From Candidatus Bruticola sp. (GTDB taxonomy: Bacteria > Vulcanimicrobiota > Xenobia > Xenobiales > Xenobiaceae), in the NCBI GenBank assembly GCA_051874735.1, contig JBJEGD010000013.1, positions 78,707-142,706 of the forward strand: a DNA stretch of 64,000 bases. Direction: 5' to 3'. Positions 1 through 62,935 of this stretch are shown here, piece by piece. How positions within the stretch are numbered: position 1 is the stretch's first letter; every line of letters starts with the position of its first letter. Both the position numbers and the translations under genes were made by a program. The notes below the pieces were generated by a model. That model searched no databases. It saw only the letters and a program-made list of their open reading frames with translations, and was not told the origin of the DNA.

Positions 1-1221
1 TCCAACAATGAGAATATTATTGAAGTTTTAGATATTGCCTGCGATGAATGTCCAGTAGGAGGTTACGAGGTTACCAACGCTTGTCGAGGCTGTATAGCTC
101 ACCGCTGTGAGCAGGCTTGCAGACGCGGAGCGATTACTTTTGACCATAATCAGAAAGCGCATATTGATAAGGACAAGTGCGTGGAGTGCGGCATGTGCGC
201 AAAAGTTTGTCCTTACAACGCTATTATGAACTTTAAGCGTCCTTGTGAGAGAGCTTGCAAAGTTAAGGCTATCAGCATGAACGAAGAAAAAGTGGCTTCT
301 ATCGACGAAAGCAAGTGCGTACGTTGTGGGGCTTGCGTTTATCAGTGTCCCTTCGGGGCTATCGTTGATAAGTCTTATATACTTAATGCTGTCGATCTGA
401 TACGCAAGAGTAAGAATGGTGGCCCTAAAGTTTATGCTGTGGTTGCTCCTTCTATTGCCAGCCAATTCAGCTACGCTAAATTGGGACAAGTAGTCAAGGC
501 TATTAAGGAGTGCGGTTTTTATAACGTTTTAGAGGCCGCTTTGGGCGCCGACATGGTAGCTTTCAATGAGTCAAAGGAATTGGCAGAGAAAGGCTTCTTG
601 CTCAGTTCTTGCTGTCCCGCCTTTGTGGCTTTTGTGCATAAAGAATTCCCTAAGCTAAAAGATAATGTCTCCCATAGTTTGTCACCTATGGCCACTATTG
701 CCAAGTATATAAAAGAAACTGATCCGGGCTGCAAGGTGGTCTTTATTGGTCCTTGTACGGCTAAAAAGATGGAAACACAGCTCGATACGGTCAGCCCTTA
801 TGTTGATGTCTCCCTGACTTTCGAAGAGTTACAGGCTTTGTTCGATGGTTTAGAGATAGATGTAGCTTCTTTGGAAGAAGATGTTTTAGACAATGCTTCC
901 TATTTCGGCAGGATATTCGCCCGCTGCGGCGGCTTGGCCGACGCTGTAGCAGAGGGGCTGAAAGAGCACGGAGTTACAGATTTCGAGCTTAAAGCCGTTT
1001 CCTGCAGCGGTTTAGAAGAATGTCGCAAAGCTTTGCTGATGGCGGCGCACGGCAAGTCTCCTTATAACTTTATTGAGGGCATGGCTTGTGTAGGCGGATG
1101 TATTGGCGGTCCAGGCTGTTTAACTCATGGTGATAAAGATTCCCGTGAAATAGATAAGTATGGCCGGGAAGCTATGGAAAAGACTATTAGCAGTGCTGTT
1201 AAGCAGTATATAAGAGATTAG
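1..1221 (+). CDS. Ferredoxin-domain [FeFe]-hydrogenase, group B-like (5' partial; the frame is open from base 1)
   Basis: Frame 1 is open upstream of the listed ORF (IACDECP...CRGCIAHRCEQAC...CVECGMC). It has several 4Fe-4S motifs plus the H-cluster motifs SSCCPAF, GPCTAKKME and EGMACVGGCIGGPG. Confidence 0.88.
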   Translation, partial: SNNENIIEVLDIACDECPVGGYEVTNACRGCIAHRCEQACRRGAITFDHNQKAHIDKDKCVECGMCAKVCPYNAIMNFKRPCERACKVKAISMNEEKVASIDESKCVRCGACVYQCPFGAIVDKSYILNAVDLIRKSKNGGPKVYAVVAPSIASQFSYAKLGQVVKAIKECGFYNVLEAALGADMVAFNESKELAEKGFLLSSCCPAFVAFVHKEFPKLKDNVSHSLSPMATIAKYIKETDPGCKVVFIGPCTAKKMETQLDTVSPYVDVSLTFEELQALFDGLEIDVASLEEDVLDNASYFGRIFARCGGLADAVAEGLKEHGVTDFELKAVSCSGLEECRKALLMAAHGKSPYNFIEGMACVGGCIGGPGCLTHGDKDSREIDKYGREAMEKTISSAVKQYIRD

Positions 1222-1242
1222 TTTCTTCGCTTGTAGGCTTAT

Positions 1243-1277
1243 AAAATCGGCTGAAAAAATTTCAGCCGATTTTTTTT
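1243..1277 (+). terminator. Intrinsic terminator after the hydrogenase gene
   Basis: AAAATCGGCTGAAA-loop-TTTCAGCCGATTTT stem followed by a T-run. Confidence 0.8.
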
Positions 1278-1348
1278 CAGCAGCAGGAAAACTATATTTA
1301 ATGTAGTAATTTTCATCTCGTTGCCGCGATAGTGGGCAGCTGTACAAT

Positions 1349-5948: not shown

Positions 5949-6014
5949 CTTTTTTGGTGGTTGACATCCGTCCACCGCTTTTTTAGTTGAGGTTGTTGTC
6001 GGCCGTTATTAAAT

Positions 6015-6063
6015 AAAGCCCGCCCAACTTACCCTTACGGGCAACTGGGGCGGGCTTTGTTTT
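6015..6063. terminator. Bidirectional terminator between convergent gpmA and the TlpA gene
   Basis: AAAGCCCGCCC...GGGCGGGCTTT stem with flanking T/A runs. Confidence 0.7.
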
Positions 6064-6141
6064 CGTTGGTCTTCAATTTTTTATATCGAGTTGATATAGG
6101 TCAAGCTGCTTGAAGACGGACGTCTGAGGTTATTTTTTTTG

Positions 6142-9438: not shown

Positions 9439-12400
9439 ATGAAAGCAGTTGTTAATACCGGCAAAAATAAGCGAACTGATAACACCAGAGAAGATAAAAA
9501 CCTTAATGATGTAGTGAAGAGCGGCCATATCGCTAACCATCATCTGCTTCCTAAACTTAAATCGGTAGCTGTACGCCGTTTTCTAGCTAGTACTCAAGAT
9601 TATTTTGGCGTCTTAAGTGAAGCTGGCCAAGCAGACACTCCCTACGGAAAGGTACCGTATTTAGCTCAAGTTGTTTTAGGAGAGAGCAAAGCGGTGCTTC
9701 TGGAGTATAAAAAATCTTTAGATAGCACTCAGGGGCGTTTAGCTATATCTTTTCTGCTAGTCGAACGTTGGTCGGAGTTTCGCTTAATATTGGTTAACCA
9801 TATTGGCCAGCCACTTTATGAAACGGCCCCTGCTTATTATTGGAATGCTCTGGAAATGCCATCTCTAAGCCGCAATTTCCTTTTAGCCTGTTACATAAAA
9901 TTTTATCAGCTGAGCTTAGAAGGTCGCACATCCCTTACTTCAATTGAGTTAAGAAAATTTGATTTAGTTAATTTTGTCATTCAATTTCTGCAAGAAGGCA
10001 ACATGCTCACGAAAGCTGTTAGCGAACTTGAGGAAAAAAGAGCTGATATAGCTCGTCCTCAGCCTTTTTTTGCCGATTTGCAGGCCAGTGCCGTTTTTGG
10101 ATTATATTTGGCTTCTTGCGTTAGTTACGATGGACCCTCGGAAATTAGTTTTCAAGATGGACTGCCTTTGGTAAATTACCCTTTGTCTAAAGGGATTTTA
10201 ATTTTTAAAGTAGGTCTTCTAGCCCATTATATTTTGAAAAATCCGGCTTCGAAAGCGGCTTTGCCTGGAGCTGTCAGAGCGGTAGTAAGCCAAATATCTA
10301 ATCCCTGTCTTTGTGTTGGAGCAGAGTACAGCCCTTATCTTGATTGGCAGGATAAAATTGTGGACTTCGCTTCTGTTAAAGCGGAGCAGAATGAATGTGC
10401 TGCTTCCTCTGACGGGGCTAGCTACAGGAACGCTCCCTTTGTAGTGGCTCGCCATCTTCTCTTAGAATGGCGTTCCCAGCAGCATGAAGTGGAGAAAAAT
10501 GAAACTGGCAATAAGATAAAATTGTACCAATATTGGCTTTGTCCGGCTTGTGGCAATTTTACTACGGTTGAACGAGAAGCCGTGCCTCCTACAGGAGCGG
10601 ATATTGCCGAATTAGCTAAAGAATTGGTCAAATATACGGCCTCTCTTGAAGATCATTTATGCAGTCACTGTCGCCATAGTTTAGATATTCTGTGTCTTCA
10701 GTACACAGCTCTCGACTTTGTCTGGCCTTGGCCTGGTGTGGAACTGCTGCTGGAGATGGCGCGTACTCCTACTGATGGACGTCTGCTGCGGGGATGGGGG
10801 TGGATAAGGCTCTCCGATTTAAACAATACAGCCAAGTTCTGCAGCTGTAGTGATTCGCTTAATGAAGACAGTCTGTATAACCATTTCAAACGCTTCAGCT
10901 CTTTAATGGTTCGCACTCGAGAATTAATACGTTCCGCTTTGAGTCAGCTTAGCTACGTTGAAGAGACATCCTTGGTACAAATGCTGCCAATGGGCGGTTC
11001 TTTATTCTTGCGTTTGGAAAATGCCTCACAAGGTACTGCTAATAATTCTGAACAGGAGGAGGGCCATTTTGTTGAGCTTGAAGGCAAACAGTATTTCGTA
11101 TTTCCTATAGACTTAACTAACCCGGTTTTTGCGATGCCAGCCAACTTTATTAAGCTGGATAAGATTTTAAAAGCGCGTTACTACCTCGATTGGACTGCTT
11201 TCGTTTTATTTTCTCAAGAGCATTTCAACTATATATTCCAGGTAGAAGGCAGAGAAATTAGGATTAACTGGATTGGCTCACATAAGCAAAAAATAGAAGT
11301 CTCTAGTAAAAAAGCGTTTTTCAGTCGCAATTTAGCCGAGTTAGCCTCCCAAGCTTTTTACAGCGGATATTATCCGGAGGAAATGTTGGTTAGAGGCTGT
11401 GCTGAAGACTACAAAATTTTCCAGGAGCAAGAAGATGTTTTCGATTGGGCCGAGCATCTTCAAGCTGGAGGGGAGCCTGTGCGCTGTGAAGCCGAGGGAC
11501 GCGCCTATGCTTTGTCTACTGGTGAGGAGGTTCGAAAGGTCAGCGCTGAGGAATTGCATGAAGCTTTGGAAAAACCGATGCGTTTAGCTAAGTTTACTTT
11601 TTCTAAAGCGCCCATAAATTTGCATCGCTGCCGTTGTGGCCTGGAGGCAGTACCAAGTATAGAATTCGTCGACTCTTCTCTGTTTAGTCATTTGAAGTAC
11701 ATAAAATATGAAAAAAAGTTAGACTATATTGTTAAAGATCCTAACCATAAGTTAAACACCGAGATGTTCAGCCGCTATGAAGAGCTTGATAAGAACAGGG
11801 AAAAGGCTCTCAAAGCTTCCGGAGGAAAATTGGCTGTAGCTTTAGTAGAAATCGAGTCTCTGTCTAGAAGGTCTAAAAAAGTGCCGGGCACTTTCCAGCG
11901 TACCGGTCAGATGATGCCTTCAGAAAATGAAGCATTATTTTTAGAAGCGTTTAAAAAATGGTTCCCTAGAATGGATGAGGTGCGCCTCATTAATAAACAA
12001 AAAGTTAAAACTTCTTATTTGCAGCCGGTTTGGGCTATGCGCTGTCCTTACCATGTTGTGTATATGAATCCGTCTTCTGGATCGATCCCCAGTCTATCTT
12101 CCCGGCGTCTTTTCAGTTTAGATAGACTGAGCGGTATCTTTTCAGTATATAAATTTAGGCGTTTGTGGGTTGTTTATGGCCCCAATGCTTCATTTGTAGC
12201 ACTCGATCCGAGGTTGGCAGTAGGAGTAGCTCAAGCTGGCAATATTAACTTAGACGATTTTTTCAAAGTGGCGGTGCCTCATCAGAATGTAGTTATATTG
12301 AGCGATTTAGAAACGGATAATGAAGATTTACTGGAAGTATGGCACCGTTTCTGTTGGCGTTTTCGGCAATTTCAAGGAGCAGCTAAAGACTTTTTCCTTT

Positions 12401-57735: not shown

Positions 57736-59859
57736 TTATTCTTCGTAGCCGTAATTACGCCCATCGCCCAACCAGCCAGTTTTGTCCTGGTTGGAATCAT
57801 CTTGACGTTTAACCGGAGAGATAGAAGGCAAGCCGGGGAAGGGATGAACCTTAATTGAACGAGAGGAGGGGCTCCCTAAATAGCCCTCTTGCTCAGCCGC
57901 CTGTGCTGCTTCTATAGCGGCAATGTCGGGAAGACCGGTACCGCTCTCTGCCAACTGAAGCTCCTCAGCACTGAGCTTAGAAGCAATGCGCTCTAAGAAA
58001 CGTTTTACAACTGGAGTCGCTAAGTTGAGTGGCTCAAGAGTAACAAACTTCTTGTAACCGGAGTAGGCTCTGATCATATCGCCCTTGTGCTCGGCTAGAA
58101 TGGCTAAGCCACGAACAGCAGTGGCGTTCATGGCGTCGTATTTGACGGCCTGAGCGTAAGCGTGTTCTGCTTCTGAATCGCGGTGAGCCAGGGAACAAGT
58201 ATCGCCCAGCAGAGCCCAGAGCACGGAAGAAGCGGGAGCACATCCAGTTTGATGCTCAGCTGATTGGCGCACTTCTTCAGCTAAAGCGGCCGCTTCTTTG
58301 ACTCGTTTGAGCAACAGAAGGAGCTTAACTTTACGGAAAACGCAATGAATGGAGTCGGGATAAAACTCGCAGATCTCGTCCATAGCCTGCAAAGCAGCTT
58401 CGAAATTGCTCTGCTTCATGTAGGCTGTAGCTAAAGCAACGGCGAGATTGGTGTGTACTTCTTCGGTAGCGTAGTTGCAATTCAACCCGTCGCGAGCAGC
58501 TTGAATAGCCTGAGTCCAGTTACCTTGACGAACCCAATATTCAGCCAAGCCCAAATGGCATTTCGCATCGCGGGGGGACTGGGTTACCGACTTAATATAA
58601 AGCATTTGAGCTTCAGGAATTTGGCCGGTCGCTTCCATAATAGGAGCTATTACAGAGGCGTTGTTTTCCTCATCGGTCATGTAAATGGCCAACGCCTCAT
58701 CATACATGCCAAGTTTGAAGTACAGCTCTGCCAAAGCTTTTTCGATGACGCGCCGAATCGACTTGCGCTCGTTGGGATCTTCAACAATGTCCCGGTAGTA
58801 GTCGATGGCATTTTGGGCCTCGCCGCGGCGGACATAAAGACGTCCGAGCTCCCAAAGGGCCTGGGCATTTTTTGAATCAGCGGAGAGGGCGTCTTTTAAG
58901 GTGACGATAGCATCATCGAAGAGACCTGCCTGGATCTGCTGAGTAGCCAATAAGTTCCAGATACGTTGATTAGTGCGATCTTTGGCTACTTGACTTTGAA
59001 GTTCGGCGATAAACTCTGAACTGAGACGTGACCAATGCTGCTGCAGGCCTAACTGAGCATAAACGCGCAGAAGCTCAACCTTCCACATCAAAATGTTGCG
59101 GTGAGTCGGATTAGTTCTTATAGCCTGTTCATAGGCGCCGCGTGATTCAGTGTAGTTCTTGGTTCGGTAAGCTAAGCGGGCTGCTGCTTCAAGCAGGCTG
59201 GCATTGCTGTCATGGTGCATGAGAGCTCTGGCCACCAGGTGCAGACCCATTTGCTGCAACTTAGAACGCTGATCGGGCTTGAGACCTTTGCCAAGCATTT
59301 CTTCAAAGAAAGTGGCGCCCAGAGGGCAATCCTCTTCGTCGCGCAATTCGATCAAACGGAGATAACTCTTTTCAGCAGTCGGCAGATCGTAAGCGCGAGC
59401 AGCTGTGGCCGCTAAACGTCTGACGGAATCGGGGTCGTCGGGCTGTCTGTCGAGCACCCACTGACGCAGTTCCTGAGCTTTAGCATAAGCGCCTTTTCCT
59501 TCTAAAACGTCTGCCAGTTTGACGGCAAAGAAGACGTCGGGGCAATTCTCCATGGCGTCTTCCAGGGCTTGCTGCATAGCATTGTTGTCGTTCTGTTTGC
59601 GCAATATGCTGATCTTGCGCTTATGCAGTTCCGGATCTTCCGGATTCTGCAGCAATTCTTGATTGACTTCTTCGAGAGCTTCATCGAGAGGCTCATTAAT
59701 ATCACCAAAAACAGGCTTGCCGAGACGGCCTGCCTTGGCCTGGCCTTCATTGGAACTTTGTTTGCGTACTAGGCCTTTGCCTTGATCAGTCGCTGACTGA
59801 TCTTTGCCCGGCATAGCCGGTTTAAATTGTTTGCTGGAACCAAACTTTGGAGTCATCAC
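57736..59859 (-). CDS. Multi-TPR protein
   Basis: 707 aa with many TPR-like helix pairs, disordered termini and no signal peptide; GAGGAG RBS. Confidence 0.85.
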   Translation of the reverse strand: MMTPKFGSSKQFKPAMPGKDQSATDQGKGLVRKQSSNEGQAKAGRLGKPVFGDINEPLDEALEEVNQELLQNPEDPELHKRKISILRKQNDNNAMQQALEDAMENCPDVFFAVKLADVLEGKGAYAKAQELRQWVLDRQPDDPDSVRRLAATAARAYDLPTAEKSYLRLIELRDEEDCPLGATFFEEMLGKGLKPDQRSKLQQMGLHLVARALMHHDSNASLLEAAARLAYRTKNYTESRGAYEQAIRTNPTHRNILMWKVELLRVYAQLGLQQHWSRLSSEFIAELQSQVAKDRTNQRIWNLLATQQIQAGLFDDAIVTLKDALSADSKNAQALWELGRLYVRRGEAQNAIDYYRDIVEDPNERKSIRRVIEKALAELYFKLGMYDEALAIYMTDEENNASVIAPIMEATGQIPEAQMLYIKSVTQSPRDAKCHLGLAEYWVRQGNWTQAIQAARDGLNCNYATEEVHTNLAVALATAYMKQSNFEAALQAMDEICEFYPDSIHCVFRKVKLLLLLKRVKEAAALAEEVRQSAEHQTGCAPASSVLWALLGDTCSLAHRDSEAEHAYAQAVKYDAMNATAVRGLAILAEHKGDMIRAYSGYKKFVTLEPLNLATPVVKRFLERIASKLSAEELQLAESGTGLPDIAAIEAAQAAEQEGYLGSPSSRSIKVHPFPGLPSISPVKRQDDSNQDKTGWLGDGRNYGYEE

Positions 59860-59897
59860 ACTCTCCTCACAGACGGGAACTTAGTCGCCTGGGGTGT

Positions 59898-60018
59898 TTG
59901 ACATTCCTCACAGCTTTAGGCGGAGAGGATTCCCAACTTAGAAACTTGCGACTAAGCTGTAAAAAAGCTTAGTTTCACGTTCCTGTCAGGCGTAGACTTC
60001 CGTGTGCCCCACGGTATT
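59898..60018 (-). mobile_element. Orphan IS200/IS605 right end / TnpB omegaRNA-like scaffold (non-autonomous remnant or co-opted RNA)
   Basis: The minus strand reads AATACCGTGGGGCACACGGAAGTCTACGCCTG...GAATCCTCTCCGCCTAAAGCTGTGAGGAATGTCAA, matching the remembered pattern of tnpB 3' ends (subterminal hairpin plus terminal TCAA). No tnpA or tnpB ORF is nearby. Confidence 0.6.
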
Positions 60019-60400
60019 TTTTTATGCTCCCTCGCCTTCGGGCGGATCTACGCCCGTTCTAGGCTTGCGCTGAGAGGGATAGCGCCCTTAGTAGCTCAAA
60101 TACTTGCATTTTAACAAGCACTAGGCATACCTATTTGTACTTTTTTCAAAAAGAATTAATATCCTGCTGAATGAACCGCAAGAGCGAATTTTAGCATAAA
60201 TCTTCGCATGAAAATGTAAGGCTGATTTGACCGTTCTAATATAAGTGTAGAAAAACTTAAGCTATTAGATATCGGGCTTAATTTACAATGTTAGTAAAGG
60301 TTGGCAGTCACAGTTTAATCAACTTATAAGTATTTGAAAAATAGACGGCTTGTTGCTGGACTAGAGGACAAAAAAGGTAAAATTAGAAAGCTCCCTATTT

Positions 60401-62935
60401 ATGATTGGTACTATAGTTGCAGACCGTTATAAAATAATTTCCCAGTTGGGCGTGGGGGGAATGGCCAAGGTTTATAAGGCCAAAGATTTGAATTTGGGAC
60501 GTGATGTAGCTCTTAAAGTGCTGCTCGAATCTGTCTCCAACGATCCAGAATTCAGAGAACGATTCCGTCGTGAAGCTAGGGCCAGTGCTGCTCTTTCTCA
60601 TCCCAATATCGTTCAAGTTTACGATTTTTTTGAAGCCGGCAAAGATATTTTTTTAGTTATGGAACTGATTGATGGACGCGATCTGCGCGATCTGATGCAG
60701 GAACAGGGGCATCTCAATATAGATGAAGCGGTTCGCATAATCATTGAAGTTCTTTCCGCTTTGGAGTTCGCCCATTCTCGAGGGGTGGTACACCGCGATA
60801 TCTCAGCACGCAACGTGATGATTAATAGGGACGGCTCCGTTAAAGTAGCCGATTTCGGTATCGCTCGCATAGTTGGAGAGCGCACGCTCACTCAAAGTGG
60901 AGAACTGATAGGCTCTGTACAGTATATCTCTCCGGAACAAGCCAGCGGCGGCCATGCTACTCCAGCCGCGGATATATACTCTACCGGTGTGCTGCTTTAC
61001 GAAATGCTGACTGGCGAGCTGCCCTTTAATTCCGACAATGTAGTTAAACTAGCTTTAATGCACGTGCAGTGTGCTGTTCCCAAACCTTCCGCTTTACGGC
61101 CGCAGATTTCAGAAGCTTTGGATAATATAGTCCTTAAGGCTATGTCTAAAAATCCGGTAAACCGTTACCGCAGTGCCGGAGAAATGATTGATGCTCTGCA
61201 GATGCTACGCTCTTCTAGTGCACCTTCGTCGGCAGGACATCCTTTAGTGCAGGCTTCGGCGCATCCATTGCCCGAACAGGCCTCTACAGCCAATACAGAT
61301 TCTGCTCTATCTGGTTCTTTTTATGGAGGGACAGTTGGAGAGGGAGCTGCAGGGGGAGCGCTGGGACTTGCTAAATTCGATGGCGCGACAGAGCGCACTA
61401 TGCTCAAGACTCGTTTGCCGCAAAATTTAATGAAAATGCAGGAAGACTCGTTAGGGGCTTCTGTGCGCCCGTTAGACAATTCTCTGCCGGTGGATACGGT
61501 CGATCTCAGTTGCAATCCCGAAGAAGAAGAGTATCAGGAATTTGGTCCTGAGGGCTATGAAGATTACGATGGTGAGAACGGCGAAGTGTACGAGGAGGGG
61601 GAAGAAAACCAGACTGAAGACGCAGAGTCTGAAAGTATGGGAGCCGTAAATCACAGTTTGGGAGCCATTATAGCTGTAACTCTAACTATTTTGATTGCTT
61701 TTGTAGCGGGAATTACCTGGGTTAACCTCAATTCTGCTCCAGGGGTCAATGTGCCCTCAGTAGTTGGACAAAAACTAGCTCAAGCTAGAGAAACGGTTAA
61801 AGAAGCTGGTCTGCGTTTAGAAGTACGGTCACAAAAATATGAACAGGGCGTTCATCCTGGTATTGTGTTGAGCCAAGATCCGGTTAGCGGTGTGCAGCTA
61901 GTTAAAGATGGGGTCATTTGGGTGGATATAAGTTTAGGCAGAGAGCTAATCGCCGTGCCCGATCTAAGCGGTTTGACCGAAGACAGGGCTTGCGATGAAC
62001 TTAATAACAGCGGTTTAGGTTACACTATAGTGCCCAAAGAGAACAGTGCCCCTGCTGGTACGGTTTTTGCTCAAGATCCTTCGGCCGGGCAGGAGTTAGC
62101 TGCCGGTTCTGAAGTGACCGTTTTTATTAGTTTAGGTCACGGTGAAGTTAAAGTACCCGACTTAAGCGGTTTAAGTTTGAAGAGTGCGGCCGATTTGGTT
62201 GTTGGTTTGGGCGGTAGTGTAAAAGTACGTGCTCAAAAAGACGATCCCAAAGCTGCTGAGGGAACTATCCTTGCTCAGGAGCCGGCTTCAGGTCAAGTTT
62301 TCCGCCGTGGTACTGTTGTTTATGTAGTAATTTGTAGCAAAAAGATGGCTGAGAACAAACCGGCTCCTTCGTTAATAGGCAAGAGCGTAGCAGAAGCTAA
62401 GGCTGAAGCGACCGCCTTGGGTATAGAACTCAATATTGAGGGAGATAGTTCTGAAGCTGCCCGCATAAATACTCAGAGCACTGCACCGGGAACGATGATT
62501 GAAGGAGGCCGTTTAACTGTTTCTGCTTCTACTCAAGCAGTAATCCCCGATGTCTGTACTCAGAGTTATGAGCAGGCTCTGAATAACTTAAAAAACGCTG
62601 GTTTCAAAGTCGGGCGTATATCTGTATCGGCCGGTACGGCTAACGATGTCGTAATTGAACAATATCCTGGAGGAGGACAGATGGCCCCCTTAGGCAGTAG
62701 CATCGATTTGACGATTACCAAGGCTGTTGAAAATGAGTCAGAAGCTTCTGCCCCCAGTAACGGAAGTACAACGATTAATATTAATTCTGTACCGCTTAAG
62801 GCTCCCGATCCTAGTCCAGTGGCTCCAGAACATTCTGCTCCTCCTGTAGAATCATCGCAGTCGCCTACTGATGGAGAGCATGGTAGCGGAGATAGCGGCA
62901 ATTTAGACATTGAACTTCCTGGGGATCTGCCCTAG
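60401..62935 (+). CDS. pknB: Stk1/PknB family PASTA-domain Ser/Thr kinase
   Basis: GVGGMAKVY, VALK, HRDISARN, DFGIAR and YISPEQ motifs; a TM helix; multiple PASTA repeats. Confidence 0.93.
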   Translation: MIGTIVADRYKIISQLGVGGMAKVYKAKDLNLGRDVALKVLLESVSNDPEFRERFRREARASAALSHPNIVQVYDFFEAGKDIFLVMELIDGRDLRDLMQEQGHLNIDEAVRIIIEVLSALEFAHSRGVVHRDISARNVMINRDGSVKVADFGIARIVGERTLTQSGELIGSVQYISPEQASGGHATPAADIYSTGVLLYEMLTGELPFNSDNVVKLALMHVQCAVPKPSALRPQISEALDNIVLKAMSKNPVNRYRSAGEMIDALQMLRSSSAPSSAGHPLVQASAHPLPEQASTANTDSALSGSFYGGTVGEGAAGGALGLAKFDGATERTMLKTRLPQNLMKMQEDSLGASVRPLDNSLPVDTVDLSCNPEEEEYQEFGPEGYEDYDGENGEVYEEGEENQTEDAESESMGAVNHSLGAIIAVTLTILIAFVAGITWVNLNSAPGVNVPSVVGQKLAQARETVKEAGLRLEVRSQKYEQGVHPGIVLSQDPVSGVQLVKDGVIWVDISLGRELIAVPDLSGLTEDRACDELNNSGLGYTIVPKENSAPAGTVFAQDPSAGQELAAGSEVTVFISLGHGEVKVPDLSGLSLKSAADLVVGLGGSVKVRAQKDDPKAAEGTILAQEPASGQVFRRGTVVYVVICSKKMAENKPAPSLIGKSVAEAKAEATALGIELNIEGDSSEAARINTQSTAPGTMIEGGRLTVSASTQAVIPDVCTQSYEQALNNLKNAGFKVGRISVSAGTANDVVIEQYPGGGQMAPLGSSIDLTITKAVENESEASAPSNGSTTININSVPLKAPDPSPVAPEHSAPPVESSQSPTDGEHGSGDSGNLDIELPGDLP

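What the first reader, a model, noticed from the sequence alone, without database searches (positions are those of the whole stretch)
59860..60112. Orphan TnpB omegaRNA / IS605-end-like RNA embedded in the structured leader of a TPR gene
Seen on the minus strand: an extended -10 (TGTTAAAAT, about 60116-60108), then about 240 nt of dense structure ending at the TPR gene RBS. It includes the CCGTG-GGGCA-CACGG hairpin followed by TCTACGCCTG, and a terminal GAATCCTC...GAGGAATGTCAA. Established: IS200/IS605 right ends of this form encode the TnpB omegaRNA, with the sequence after TCAA serving as guide; domesticated TnpB derivatives (TldR) use such RNAs to regulate genes. There is no tnpB coding remnant here. 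The would-be guide (59897-59878) is ACACCCCAGGCGACTAAGTT. Inference: either a ~120-160 nt non-autonomous element (the CGCC-CGAA-GGCG hairpin near 60033-60044 could be a left end), a trans-acting guide for a TnpB/TldR encoded elsewhere, or an omegaRNA co-opted as a cis-regulator.
Basis: partly seen in the sequence, partly recalled or inferred. Interest (0 to 1): 0.75.

Follow-up and report, generated by a model that had tools for sequence, protein, structure and literature searches.

The report
Orphan TnpB guide-RNA relic in leader
The leader of this TPR gene contains the leftover guide-RNA scaffold of an IS605-type transposon that has lost its nuclease gene, and the scaffold has been kept unusually well across a whole genus, so it may have acquired a use of its own.

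Summary
Window 60022..59898 (minus strand) is a full-length TnpB omegaRNA scaffold, the right end of an IS200/IS605 element. A covariance model built only from right ends in other phyla, three of them directly behind Pfam-confirmed tnpB genes, hits it at 53.5 bits, E 9e-12; the next best hit in the window is 12.9 bits. Rfam has no match.

It is an orphan. This 92%-complete assembly has no TnpB or Y1 TnpA, no tnpB coding remnant and no detectable left end. The would-be guide is simply the flanking host sequence: the 5' arm of an older hairpin next to the ribosome-binding site, also present in genomes that lack the element. It has no second target.

The scaffold sits at the same site in 8 of 10 genomes of the genus. 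It is better conserved (63-85% identity) than fourfold-degenerate sites of the adjacent gene (39-65%) or upstream intergenic DNA (27-67%), with compensatory stem changes.

It is most likely a fossil right end retained as a structured cis leader. No function is shown, and no RNA data exist.

The parts
59898..60022 (-). Orphan TnpB omegaRNA scaffold, i.e. the right end of an IS605-family element, 'GTCAA' subtype (125 nt).
   Evidence: R2 gives 53.5 bits, E 9e-12, model positions 1-125 of 125. R1 gives 46.1 bits, E 1.1e-10. Seven of 7 orthologous leaders also hit.
60000..60014 (-). P1 hairpin CCGTG-GGGCA-CACGG, preceded by AAAAAATA at 60022-60015. Read on the + strand it looks like a weak intrinsic terminator (hairpin plus T-run).
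   Evidence: P1 is invariant in 17 of 17 sister copies and in 8 of 8 orthologues. In intact elements it starts about 15 nt after the tnpB stop codon.
59932..59990 (-). Central multi-helix domain. P2 pairs CCTGA 59990-59986 with TTGGG 59936-59932. P2a pairs GAAACT 59976-59971 with AGTTTC 59946-59941. The variable hairpin P3 lies at about 59973-59951. The junction resembles RAGATH-18.
   Evidence: R2 alignment. Compensatory changes among the 8 orthologues. RAGATH-18 gives sub-threshold hits (26-27 bits, gathering score 44.9) on sister copies only.
59898..59929 (-). P4 hairpin (TCCTC 59929-59925 with GAGGA 59909-59905) followed by the terminal ATGTCAA at 59904-59898. This is the transposon end.
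   Evidence: The same module, GAATCCCC..GGGGAGTGTCAA, ends the elements behind intact tnpB genes (L109, L092, L100), and flanks diverge immediately after it.
59878..59897 (-). Would-be guide. It is simply the host DNA flanking the right end, and it forms the anti-SD CCCC plus the 5' arm of the hairpin next to the ribosome-binding site.
   Evidence: The same sequence is present in 4 orthologous loci that lack the scaffold (L023-L026). The 16-mer matches only itself exactly in the genome. The 18-mer has 0 matches in viral contigs.
59862..59894 (-). Older hairpin beside the SD: CCCC, then CAGGCG 59891-59886, a loop, then CGTCTG 59875-59870, then SD GAGGAGA 59868-59862.
   Evidence: Kept in 12 of 12 orthologues across two genera with changes on both sides, e.g. 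CAGGCGG/CCGCCTG, CAAGCGG/CCGCTTG, CAAGTGG/CCACTTG. In predicted folds the CCCC pairs with SD guanines in several orthologues.
60023..60116 (-). This part is not IS-derived by any test.
   Evidence: No left-end or tnpB similarity. Alignable only with G008.
57736..59856 (-). TPR-repeat protein gene served by the leader.
   Evidence: ORF. Pfam TPR_16 E 1.2e-26 plus 17 other TPR/ARM-type families.

Best explanation
An IS200/IS605-family element (Y1 TnpA, TnpB and a 3' omegaRNA) inserted, in an ancestor of 8 of the 10 sampled species of this genus, immediately 5' of an existing SD-sequestering hairpin in front of the TPR gene. The transposase and nuclease genes and the left end were later lost. Only the 125-nt right end, the complete omegaRNA scaffold at 60022..59898, remains.

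Its 'guide' is just the adjoining host leader. In this genome it cannot work as a guide RNA, because no TnpB is encoded and no second target exists.

The scaffold is presumably co-transcribed with the TPR mRNA. It has been kept under purifying selection on its stems, so it most likely now acts in cis as a folded 5'-leader module next to the anti-SD hairpin, for example by stabilising the mRNA or shaping access to the ribosome-binding site.

Shown: its identity, its orphan state, its fixation at one site, and its conservation with compensatory changes. Inferred: that it is transcribed, and its cis role.
For: Identity:
- R2 was built from 14 right ends of non-related genomes. Three of them lie directly behind ORFs carrying HTH_OrfB_IS605, OrfB_IS605 and Cas12f1-like_TNB (5 of 5 tested ORFs). 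One of those elements also carries a Y1_Tnp gene, E 1e-45.
- R2 hits window 60022..59898 at 53.5 bits, E 9e-12, full length; the next best hit is 12.9 bits.
- R1 was built from 17 sister copies at other loci in relatives. It gives 46.1 bits.
- In the pattern scan of genome contigs, 46 of 122 motif instances follow an ORF with a TnpB C-terminal signature, and 29 of those ORFs are at least 330 aa.
- In G008 a sister copy directly follows a tnpB C-terminal remnant.

Orphan state:
- PF07282, PF01385 and PF01797 give no match over cut-off in the own genome.
- tblastn with 7 TnpB and 1 TnpA proteins gives a best E of 0.002, and that hit is a zinc ribbon in an unrelated ORF.
- No left end was found.

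Insertion into an older element:
- Four orthologous loci (L023-L026) keep the hairpin and SD and have 0 of 4 R1 hits.

Selection:
- In 11 species pairs, scaffold identity over all alignment columns is 0.63-0.85, against 0.27-0.67 for the 250 nt upstream. In the 13 pairs, fourfold-degenerate sites of the adjacent gene are 0.39-0.65 identical.
- Among the 8 orthologues, 92.2% of pair cells are paired, against 28-42% when partners are slid. Ten of 30 pairs changed on both sides, and 0 of 500 shuffles reach this.
- The compensation is visible directly, for example P2a GAAATG:CATTTC / GAAACC:GGTTTC / GAAACT:AGTTTC.
Against: - Nothing shows that the leader is transcribed from upstream of the scaffold. 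No promoter was found, and no RNA run holds the sequence.
- The pair counts were made on an alignment fitted to the model's structure, which favours pairing.
- P3 cannot be aligned between the two ortholog groups, and the inner pairs of P4 are lost in 6 of 8 orthologues. Part of the scaffold is therefore decaying.
- The genus holds 82 such scaffolds at E <= 1e-4 in 9 of 10 genomes, and most have no gene-specific role that I could see.
- Conservation could serve a selfish purpose (loading by a TnpB supplied in trans) rather than the host.
- The assembly is 92% complete in 42 contigs. IS copies often fail to assemble, and in relatives 4 TnpB loci sit at contig ends. Absence of TnpB is therefore not proven.
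Confidence: 0.6

Rival explanations
1. It is a neutral fossil. The right end is a decaying remnant with no present function, and its apparent conservation reflects limited time or an artefact of alignment.
For: It is an orphan with no TnpB, TnpA or left end. P3 is unalignable between ortholog groups, and inner P4 pairs are broken in 6 of 8 orthologues. Such relics and PATE-like copies are numerous in the genus, with 82 matches. The pair counts rest on a model-fitted alignment.
Against: Fourfold-degenerate sites of the adjacent gene are near saturation between the two ortholog groups (0.39-0.48 identical). The scaffold keeps 0.63-0.66 identity over all columns in those pairs, and the upstream 250 nt only 0.27-0.40. 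P1 and the 3' module are almost invariant in 8 of 8 orthologues. P2 and P2a change on both sides while keeping their pairing. Gene conversion from other copies is unlikely, because the conserved P1 loop and the GAGGAATGTCAA end are specific to the TPR copies.
Confidence: 0.25
2. It is a working guide RNA. The scaffold is loaded in trans by a TnpB, or a nuclease-dead TldR-like derivative, encoded elsewhere in an unassembled part of the genome or on a mobile element. It then directs cleavage of empty alleles (selfish retention or homing) or represses a target.
For: The scaffold is complete (full-length model match) and under structural constraint. Within the genus, G003 has an intact 431-aa TnpB followed by an R2-type omegaRNA (35.9 bits), and G009 has a truncated one. 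The assembly is 92% complete, and IS copies break contigs in relatives. One genome of the genus without the element (G002) has TTTAT just 5' of the guide-like sequence, resembling the TTAY motif next to the left ends of this subtype (4 left ends only). PATEs with omegaRNAs that need TnpB in trans are described (PMC10055086, passages read).
Against: The own assembly has no TnpB-family match by two Pfam models or by tblastn. The closest relative G008 has only tnpB fragments. The guide matches only its own flank, with 0 other matches at up to 2 mismatches. Seven matches at 3 mismatches compare with my own estimate of about 19 by chance. There are 0 matches in viral contigs. The locus itself lacks a TAM, so it is not a repressor site for its own gene.
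Confidence: 0.1
3. It is a complete, still mobile, non-autonomous element (PATE/MITE) with both ends, whose left end lies in the hairpins at 60030-60100.
For: Sister copies in relatives are exactly that. A roughly 75-nt left end flanked by TTTAAC is fused to the 131-nt right end. G008 has near-identical multi-copy versions made of left end, tnpB C-terminal fragment and right end.
Against: The left-end model R3 finds left ends in intact elements (30.4 and 29.7 bits). In window 59800-60420 with filters off, its best hits are 11.6 bits on the + strand (60314-60343) and 7.0 bits on the element's strand, neither adjacent to the scaffold. BLAST with 4 left ends of the GTCAA subtype gives only chance words. 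No Y1 transposase is present. The copy is fixed at one orthologous site in 8 species and is single-copy in this genome.
Confidence: 0.03
4. It is not IS-derived at all, but an unrelated riboswitch or protein-binding leader that merely resembles a transposon end.
For: It lies in a 5' leader on the gene's strand, is structured and is conserved.
Against: Full-length, highly significant matches to two models built from other loci, one of them from TnpB-linked right ends in other phyla. No Rfam family matches even at E <= 10.
Confidence: 0.02

Closest known systems
TnpB omegaRNA (reRNA) encoded at the right end of IS200/IS605 elements (IS608/ISDra2 type)
   Same: Sequence-and-structure homology to RNAs that start about 15 nt after the stop of Pfam-confirmed tnpB genes. 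Those elements also carry a Y1 tnpA. The scaffold ends at the transposon boundary (...TGTCAA), with flanking DNA in the guide position. The left-end and right-end hairpins of the intact relatives resemble each other.
   Different: There is no tnpB, no tnpA and no left end at this locus or in this assembly. The copy is fixed in a host gene leader across a genus. The TTAC/TCAA motifs of IS608 are recalled, not taken from a call.
RAGATH-18-derived reRNAs of IS607 TnpB (ISFba1; PMC11061315, passages read)
   Same: They share the core junction CCUGUGGAG...GAUGAAGCAGGAA. The scaffold lies outside the tnpB ORF. They are abundant in gut bacteria, and the paper reports 64% (10,258 of 16,029) of RAGATH-18 RNAs next to a TnpB, so many are not adjacent.
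   Different: Rfam RAGATH-18 reaches only 26-27 bits (gathering score 44.9) on sister copies and gives nothing on this leader. The intact relatives here carry a Y1 (IS605-type) transposase, not a serine-recombinase (IS607-type) one. The scaffold is 125-131 nt, against 187 nt. The inferred TAM is TTAY/TTTAA, against AGGAG/GAGGG.
PATEs, protein-less IS200/IS605 derivatives that still encode omegaRNAs (Meers et al., PMC10055086, passages read)
   Same: An omegaRNA without its nuclease. Sister copies in relatives are genuine left-end-plus-right-end PATE-like units.
   Different: No left end is detectable at this locus, so it is a right-end-only relic. It is not multi-copy in this genome.
TldR guide RNAs, from domesticated nuclease-dead TnpB repressors (PMC10705468, abstract only; 10.64898/2026.09.22.753285, passages)
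   Same: An omegaRNA-type scaffold tied to host gene regulation rather than transposition would be the analogy.
   Different: TldR guide RNAs sit next to a tldR gene and match a promoter elsewhere beside a TAM. Here there is no TnpB-like gene and no second target.

Membership tests
TnpB omegaRNA / IS200-IS605 right end | Sequence and secondary-structure homology to RNAs encoded directly 3' of intact tnpB genes | tested here: met
   R2, from 14 right ends of which 3 are behind Pfam-confirmed TnpB, gives 53.5 bits, E 9e-12, model positions 1-125 of 125. R1 gives 46.1 bits.
TnpB omegaRNA / IS200-IS605 right end | The scaffold ends at the transposon boundary, and what follows is unrelated flanking DNA (the guide position) | tested here: met
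   Nineteen GTCAA-type copies diverge right after GTCAA. At this locus the sequence after 59898 is host leader, also present in 4 loci without the scaffold.
TnpB omegaRNA / IS200-IS605 right end | Adjacent tnpB gene, or a coding remnant, upstream on the same strand | tested here: not met
   tblastn with 7 TnpB proteins gives no hit in C13:138.6-139.1 kb. The upstream neighbour is a divergent PASTA kinase gene.
TnpB omegaRNA / IS200-IS605 right end | A cognate TnpB encoded in the same genome | tested here: not met
   PF07282 best 15.8 bits (cut-off 26.3) and PF01385 best 13.5 bits (cut-off 30.5). The best tblastn hit, E 0.002, is an unrelated zinc ribbon. The assembly is 92.4% complete, so absence is not proven.
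TnpB omegaRNA / IS200-IS605 right end | Expressed as a discrete RNA that binds TnpB and guides DNA cleavage | not testable with these tools
   No RNA run is listed for the sequence.
PATE / MITE derivative of IS200/IS605 | Left end with a subterminal hairpin beside a TAM, paired with the right end | tested here: not met
   R3 detects the left ends of L145 (30.4 bits) and L135 (29.7 bits). In 59800-60420 its best hits are 11.6 bits on the + strand and 7.0 bits on the element's strand, neither adjacent to the scaffold. BLAST with the left ends of L109, L127, L100 and L055 gives only 7-15-nt chance words. Only 4 left ends of this subtype were available.
TldR guide RNA | Encoded beside a nuclease-dead tnpB-like gene, with the guide matching a promoter elsewhere next to a TAM | tested here: not met
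   No TnpB-like gene. The guide 16-mer matches only its own flank exactly. The seven 3-mismatch matches are not preceded by TTAY.
Rfam RAGATH-18 (RF03064) | Score at or above the gathering threshold of 44.9 bits | tested here: not met
   No match at E <= 10 in 59700-60420. Sister copies reach 26.0-26.8 bits.
Any curated cis-regulatory RNA (riboswitch, ribosomal leader, etc.) in Rfam 15 | Match to a family model | tested here: not met
   Three tRNAs are the only gathering-level matches in the window. There are 0 matches at E <= 10 in the leader.

The most novel reading that the evidence does not exclude
The omegaRNA scaffold has been exapted. After loss of its nuclease it became a TnpB-independent, fold-dependent 5'-leader module that tunes stability or translation of the TPR mRNA together with the adjoining anti-SD hairpin. 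It would be one of several such domesticated right ends in this genus, since a second sits in the trmD-rplS spacer of at least 5 genomes, and it is kept by compensatory evolution. That would be a transposon guide RNA recycled as a host cis-regulatory RNA.
Probability: 0.3. Interest if true: 0.7.

Novelty: new member of a known kind. Interest (0 to 1): 0.45.

Why it matters
TnpB guide RNAs are known as parts of active transposons, of protein-less PATEs, or of domesticated TldR repressors. This is a clean example of a fourth state: a right-end-only scaffold locked into a host gene's leader.

It has survived divergence deep enough to nearly saturate synonymous sites, with stems repaired by compensatory changes, in a genome where no TnpB was found. 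If the constraint is host-level, transposon guide RNAs are a source of new cis-regulatory RNA folds. If it is selfish (loading by a TnpB in trans), orphan scaffolds can persist as parasites of other elements' nucleases.

Such leaders can easily be mistaken for riboswitches.

I found no paper on conserved orphan omegaRNAs in leaders in the listings of three searches. Those searches are narrow, the Greek-letter spelling could not be searched, and supplements were closed.

Tried and rejected
- Rfam, whole window at gathering threshold and the leader at E <= 10: nothing but 3 tRNAs.
- Own-genome BLAST with the 271-nt leader: only itself plus 14-25-nt chance words. Copies elsewhere in the genome were seen only with the covariance models.
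- The RNAalifold consensus for A1 proposed a long-range pairing of UCUACGCCUGUGGAG with the P4 region instead of P2/P4. I rejected it in favour of a manual structure, because P4 shows A:U/G:C/G:U exchanges and the manual structure pairs 90.7% of cells against 39-50% when slid.
- Left-end searches were negative. A by-eye resemblance of 60100-60070 to the PATE left end did not survive the model search, and I dropped it.
- The tblastn hit at C3:73439-73588 (E 0.002) is the N-terminal zinc ribbon of another ORF, not a tnpB remnant.
- Four TnpB-like loci conserved in relatives were examined as possible domesticated copies. All lie within about 1 kb of contig ends, so they look like ordinary IS copies. 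My C-terminal signature did not match them.
- Guide search: nothing beyond self, and 0 exact matches of the 18-mer in viral contigs.
- Promoter scan: 0 sites.
- Expression: no RNA holder was listed, so nothing can be said either way.
- DNA contigs of two runs were laid. One contig of X1 bridges 59839-60067 with 6 substitutions and 3 gaps, so a related strain also carries the scaffold. No contig joins across it. Parts without cover say nothing.
- Literature: 10.64898/2026.09.22.753285 uses 'orphan' only for genes, not guide RNAs.
- The co-orientation of all copies with the downstream gene was considered as evidence of function and rejected. By recalled knowledge, not from any call, IS200/IS605 insertion is strand-biased with respect to replication, which would give the same pattern.
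Full report
**What is there**

On the minus strand, a 540-nt spacer separates a TPR-protein gene from a divergent PASTA Ser/Thr kinase gene at 60401-62935. The TPR gene runs from 57736 to 59856. Its ATG at 59856 is conserved in all 12 orthologues, and GTG 59859 is in frame.

The 250-nt leader folds more stably than its shuffles (-86.1 against -73.0 +/- 4.8 kcal/mol, z -2.72). Rfam gives no match in the leader, even at E <= 10.

**Relatives show two layers**

A 601-nt query matched 14 of 41 related genomes. Seven genomes of the same genus keep the stretch from 60023 to the gene start at the orthologous TPR gene: G001, G003, G004, G006, G007, G008 and G009. Four others match only from the hairpin beside the ribosome-binding site onwards: G002 and G005 of the same genus, and G012 and G015 of a sister genus.

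That hairpin reads CCCC-CAGGCGG-loop-CCGCCTG, followed by GAGGAGA. It changes on both sides across the 12 orthologues (CAGGCGG/CCGCCTG, CAGACGG/CCGTCTG, CAAGCGG/CCGCTTG, CAAGTGG/CCACTTG). It is therefore older than anything upstream of it.

The 34 nt around the CCGTG-N5-CACGG hairpin are multi-copy in the relatives.

**The multi-copy family**

The other copies are 130-nt units with a fixed architecture:
- P1 hairpin;
- RAAUCUACGCCUG;
- a closing helix P2 (CCUG/CAGG);
- P2a;
- a variable hairpin P3;
- a terminal hairpin P4;
- ...GUUCAC, after which the flanks differ from site to site.

With a manually set structure, 90.7% of pair cells are paired, against 39-50% when partners are slid. The model R1 built from these 17 copies contains none from the TPR locus. 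It hits the window at 60022..59897 with 46.1 bits, E 1.1e-10, full length and filters off; the next best hit is 14.3 bits. It also hits all 7 orthologous leaders and none of the 4 loci that lack the upstream layer.

**The family is a TnpB right end**

In G008 a copy starts about 40 nt after a reading frame ending ...CPNCGSHHNRDKNAAINMREE. This matches the last 30 positions of Pfam Cas12f1-like_TNB.

They come from Selenomonas, Mitsuokella, Megasphaera, Dialister, Ruminococcus, Treponema, Riflebacteria and others. Of 122 motif instances in those loci, 46 follow an ORF with a TnpB C-terminal signature, and 29 of those ORFs are at least 330 aa (the signature is my own regular expression).

Five of 5 ORFs tested carry HTH_OrfB_IS605, OrfB_IS605 and Cas12f1-like_TNB. 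Three elements (L109, L092, L100) show a Y1-transposase-like reading frame upstream of tnpB. The L109 one was confirmed by Pfam as Y1_Tnp, E 1e-45. These are therefore IS605-type elements.

Two 3'-end subtypes exist...GGGAGUACGUUCAC and ...GAAUCCCC..GGGGAGUGUCAA. The TPR leader has the second.

R2 was built from 14 right ends of the second subtype, all from outside the window's genus. It hits 60022..59898 with 53.5 bits, E 9e-12, full length; the next best hit is 12.9 bits.

Rfam's RAGATH-18 model, known as the core of IS607 TnpB reRNAs (PMC11061315, passages), reaches only 26-27 bits on sister copies. This is a related but uncatalogued omegaRNA class.

**It is an orphan**

- The own assembly (2.47 Mb, 42 contigs, 92.4% complete) has no match over cut-off to PF07282, PF01385 or PF01797.
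- tblastn with seven TnpB proteins and one TnpA gives nothing better than E 0.002. That hit is a zinc ribbon in an unrelated ORF.
- There is no tnpB coding remnant upstream of the scaffold.
- Relatives' copies are mostly PATE-like. A 75-nt left end flanked by TTTAAC is fused to the right end, and G008 has left end, tnpB fragment and right end together.
- At the TPR locus, the left-end model R3 finds nothing next to the scaffold, although it detects left ends in intact elements. BLAST with four left ends of the GTCAA subtype, including one from the genus itself, finds nothing either.
- The locus is therefore a right-end-only relic as far as I can tell, from only four left ends of its subtype.

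**The 'guide'**

That sequence is the anti-SD CCCC plus the 5' arm of the older hairpin, that is, ordinary flanking DNA.

Its 16-mer has no other match with up to 2 mismatches in the genome. It has seven matches with 3 mismatches, against my own estimate of about 19 expected by chance. The 18-mer is absent from viral contigs.

One genome without the element (G002) reads ...GGTTTATAATACCCCAGG. TTAT lies where the left ends of this subtype are flanked by TTAY. This suggests an ancestral target site, but it rests on four left ends.

**Conservation**

In the genus, R2 finds 82 scaffolds at E <= 1e-4 in 9 of 10 genomes: 3 in the own genome and 0 in G005. TnpB domains over cut-off occur in 8 of 10 genomes, many as fragments. 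One intact 431-aa TnpB, in G003, is followed by an R2-type omegaRNA (35.9 bits).

Identity at the TPR locus (for the leader segments, 11 species pairs, all alignment columns; for fourfold sites, 13 pairs):

| Segment | Identity |
|---|---|
| 250 nt upstream of the scaffold | 0.27-0.67 |
| Scaffold | 0.63-0.85 |
| Hairpin plus SD | 0.83-1.00 |
| First 57 nt of the gene | 0.89-1.00 |
| Fourfold-degenerate sites of the adjacent gene | 0.39-0.65 |

Among the 8 orthologues aligned to R2, 92.2% of pair cells are paired, against 28-42% when slid. Ten of 30 pairs changed on both sides, and 0 of 500 shuffles reach the observed values. That alignment is fitted to the model.

The exchanges can also be read directly from the sequences:
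- P2: CUUGA:UCAAG / CCUAG:UUAGG / CCUGA:UUGGG.
- P2a: GAAAUG:CAUUUC / GAAACC:GGUUUC / GAAACU:AGUUUC.

P3 is a hairpin in the sequences I inspected (own genome, G008, G006), but it cannot be aligned between the two ortholog groups. The inner P4 pairs are lost in 6 of 8 orthologues. The TPR copies share a P1 loop and a GAGGAAUGUCAA end that the abundant PATE copies lack, so gene conversion does not explain the conservation.

**How it probably works**

The shown steps are identity, orphan state, insertion next to an older anti-SD hairpin, and constraint on the stems. From these I infer that the scaffold is part of the TPR mRNA leader and is kept for its fold.

In predicted folds, the SD is mostly paired in all 7 scaffold-bearing leaders folded. 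Its partner is the CCCC of the hairpin in L017 and L021, and a distal UCCCUC at 60079-60074 in the own genome and G008. The scaffold sits between these partners, so a role in setting SD access or mRNA stability is plausible. It is not shown. The promoter is unknown, and no RNA data exist.

The main rivals are a neutral fossil and loading by a TnpB supplied in trans. The latter is possible in G003 and G009. I see no way for it to work in this assembly.

**Comparison and novelty**

Orphan omegaRNAs in PATEs that need TnpB in trans are described (PMC10055086, passages). The Cell Research paper reports that 36% of RAGATH-18 RNAs are not next to a TnpB. The object is thus a new member of a known kind.

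What I have not found described is its long retention, with compensatory change, inside a host leader and without a nuclease. The searches were made, judged from listings and abstracts. Supplements were closed, and the Greek-letter spelling of the RNA could not be searched.

**Limits**

- There are no expression data.
- The genome is a draft.
- E-values from the short model calibration are rough.
- The covariation controls are not tree-aware.

Noticed in passing
window 59862-59894 (-): The hairpin immediately 5' of the SD, with an invariant CCCC that can pair with SD guanines, is conserved with changes on both sides in 12 of 12 TPR orthologues across two genera. That includes the 4 that lack the transposon relic. 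It looks like the real, older translational control element of this gene; its ligand or partner is unknown.
   Followed up: partly
own genome G000:C6:64718-64845 (+), outside the window: A second orphan omegaRNA scaffold of the same subtype (R2 66.5 bits) lies between trmD and rplS. It ends ...GGGGAGTTTCAA just upstream of the L19 gene. The same spacer carries one or two such scaffolds in G001, G003, G004 and G009.
   Followed up: partly
own genome G000:C5:13144-13270 (-) and G000:C13:71044-71187 (+), outside the window: There are two further orphan scaffolds (R2 53.0 and 29.6 bits). Each lies just upstream of, and co-oriented with, a gene of 435 aa and 489 aa respectively.
   Followed up: no
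relatives: L043, L044, L046, L049 (atpE-atpF spacer); L042, L045, L054; L040, L041, L053: PATE-like units of about 205 nt (left end plus right end) sit at the same intergenic sites in several species of the genus, for example between the ATP synthase c and b subunit genes. Each ends a few bases before the next gene's ribosome-binding site.
   Followed up: partly
L061 (G008:C20) 1400-1790, with near-identical copies in L035-L039: The closest relative has several near-identical internally deleted elements (left end, last ~45 codons of tnpB, right end). Their left end is almost identical to that of Megasphaera elements (L135, L154, L180). This suggests recent horizontal arrival and mobilisation.
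   Followed up: partly
window 60000-60024 (+): Read on the opposite strand, P1 plus the A-run becomes CCGTGTGCCCCACGG TATTTTTTTA. This is a terminator-like site that would stop antisense transcription from the TPR gene before the kinase gene. The A-run is longer in most TPR copies than in typical family members.
   Followed up: no
window 10131-10201 (-), 1203-1316 (+), 5960-6084 (-): The omegaRNA models give weak, non-significant matches here (11-14 bits, E 0.06-0.6). The last one ends in GGAUGUCAAC. These are probably chance, or possibly very decayed relics.
   Followed up: no
L070 5073-5190 (+) (Mitsuokella locus): There is a sub-threshold Rfam match to STnc490, 48.9 bits against a gathering score of 56. 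By recall, that family derives from the IS200 transposase leader. The match lies a few kb from the TnpB element.
   Followed up: no
window 59934 and 60016 in run X1: A related strain's contig carries the scaffold with 6 substitutions. One turns the P2 U:G pair (59988:59934) into U:A, and a 2-base insertion lengthens the A-run before P1.
   Followed up: no
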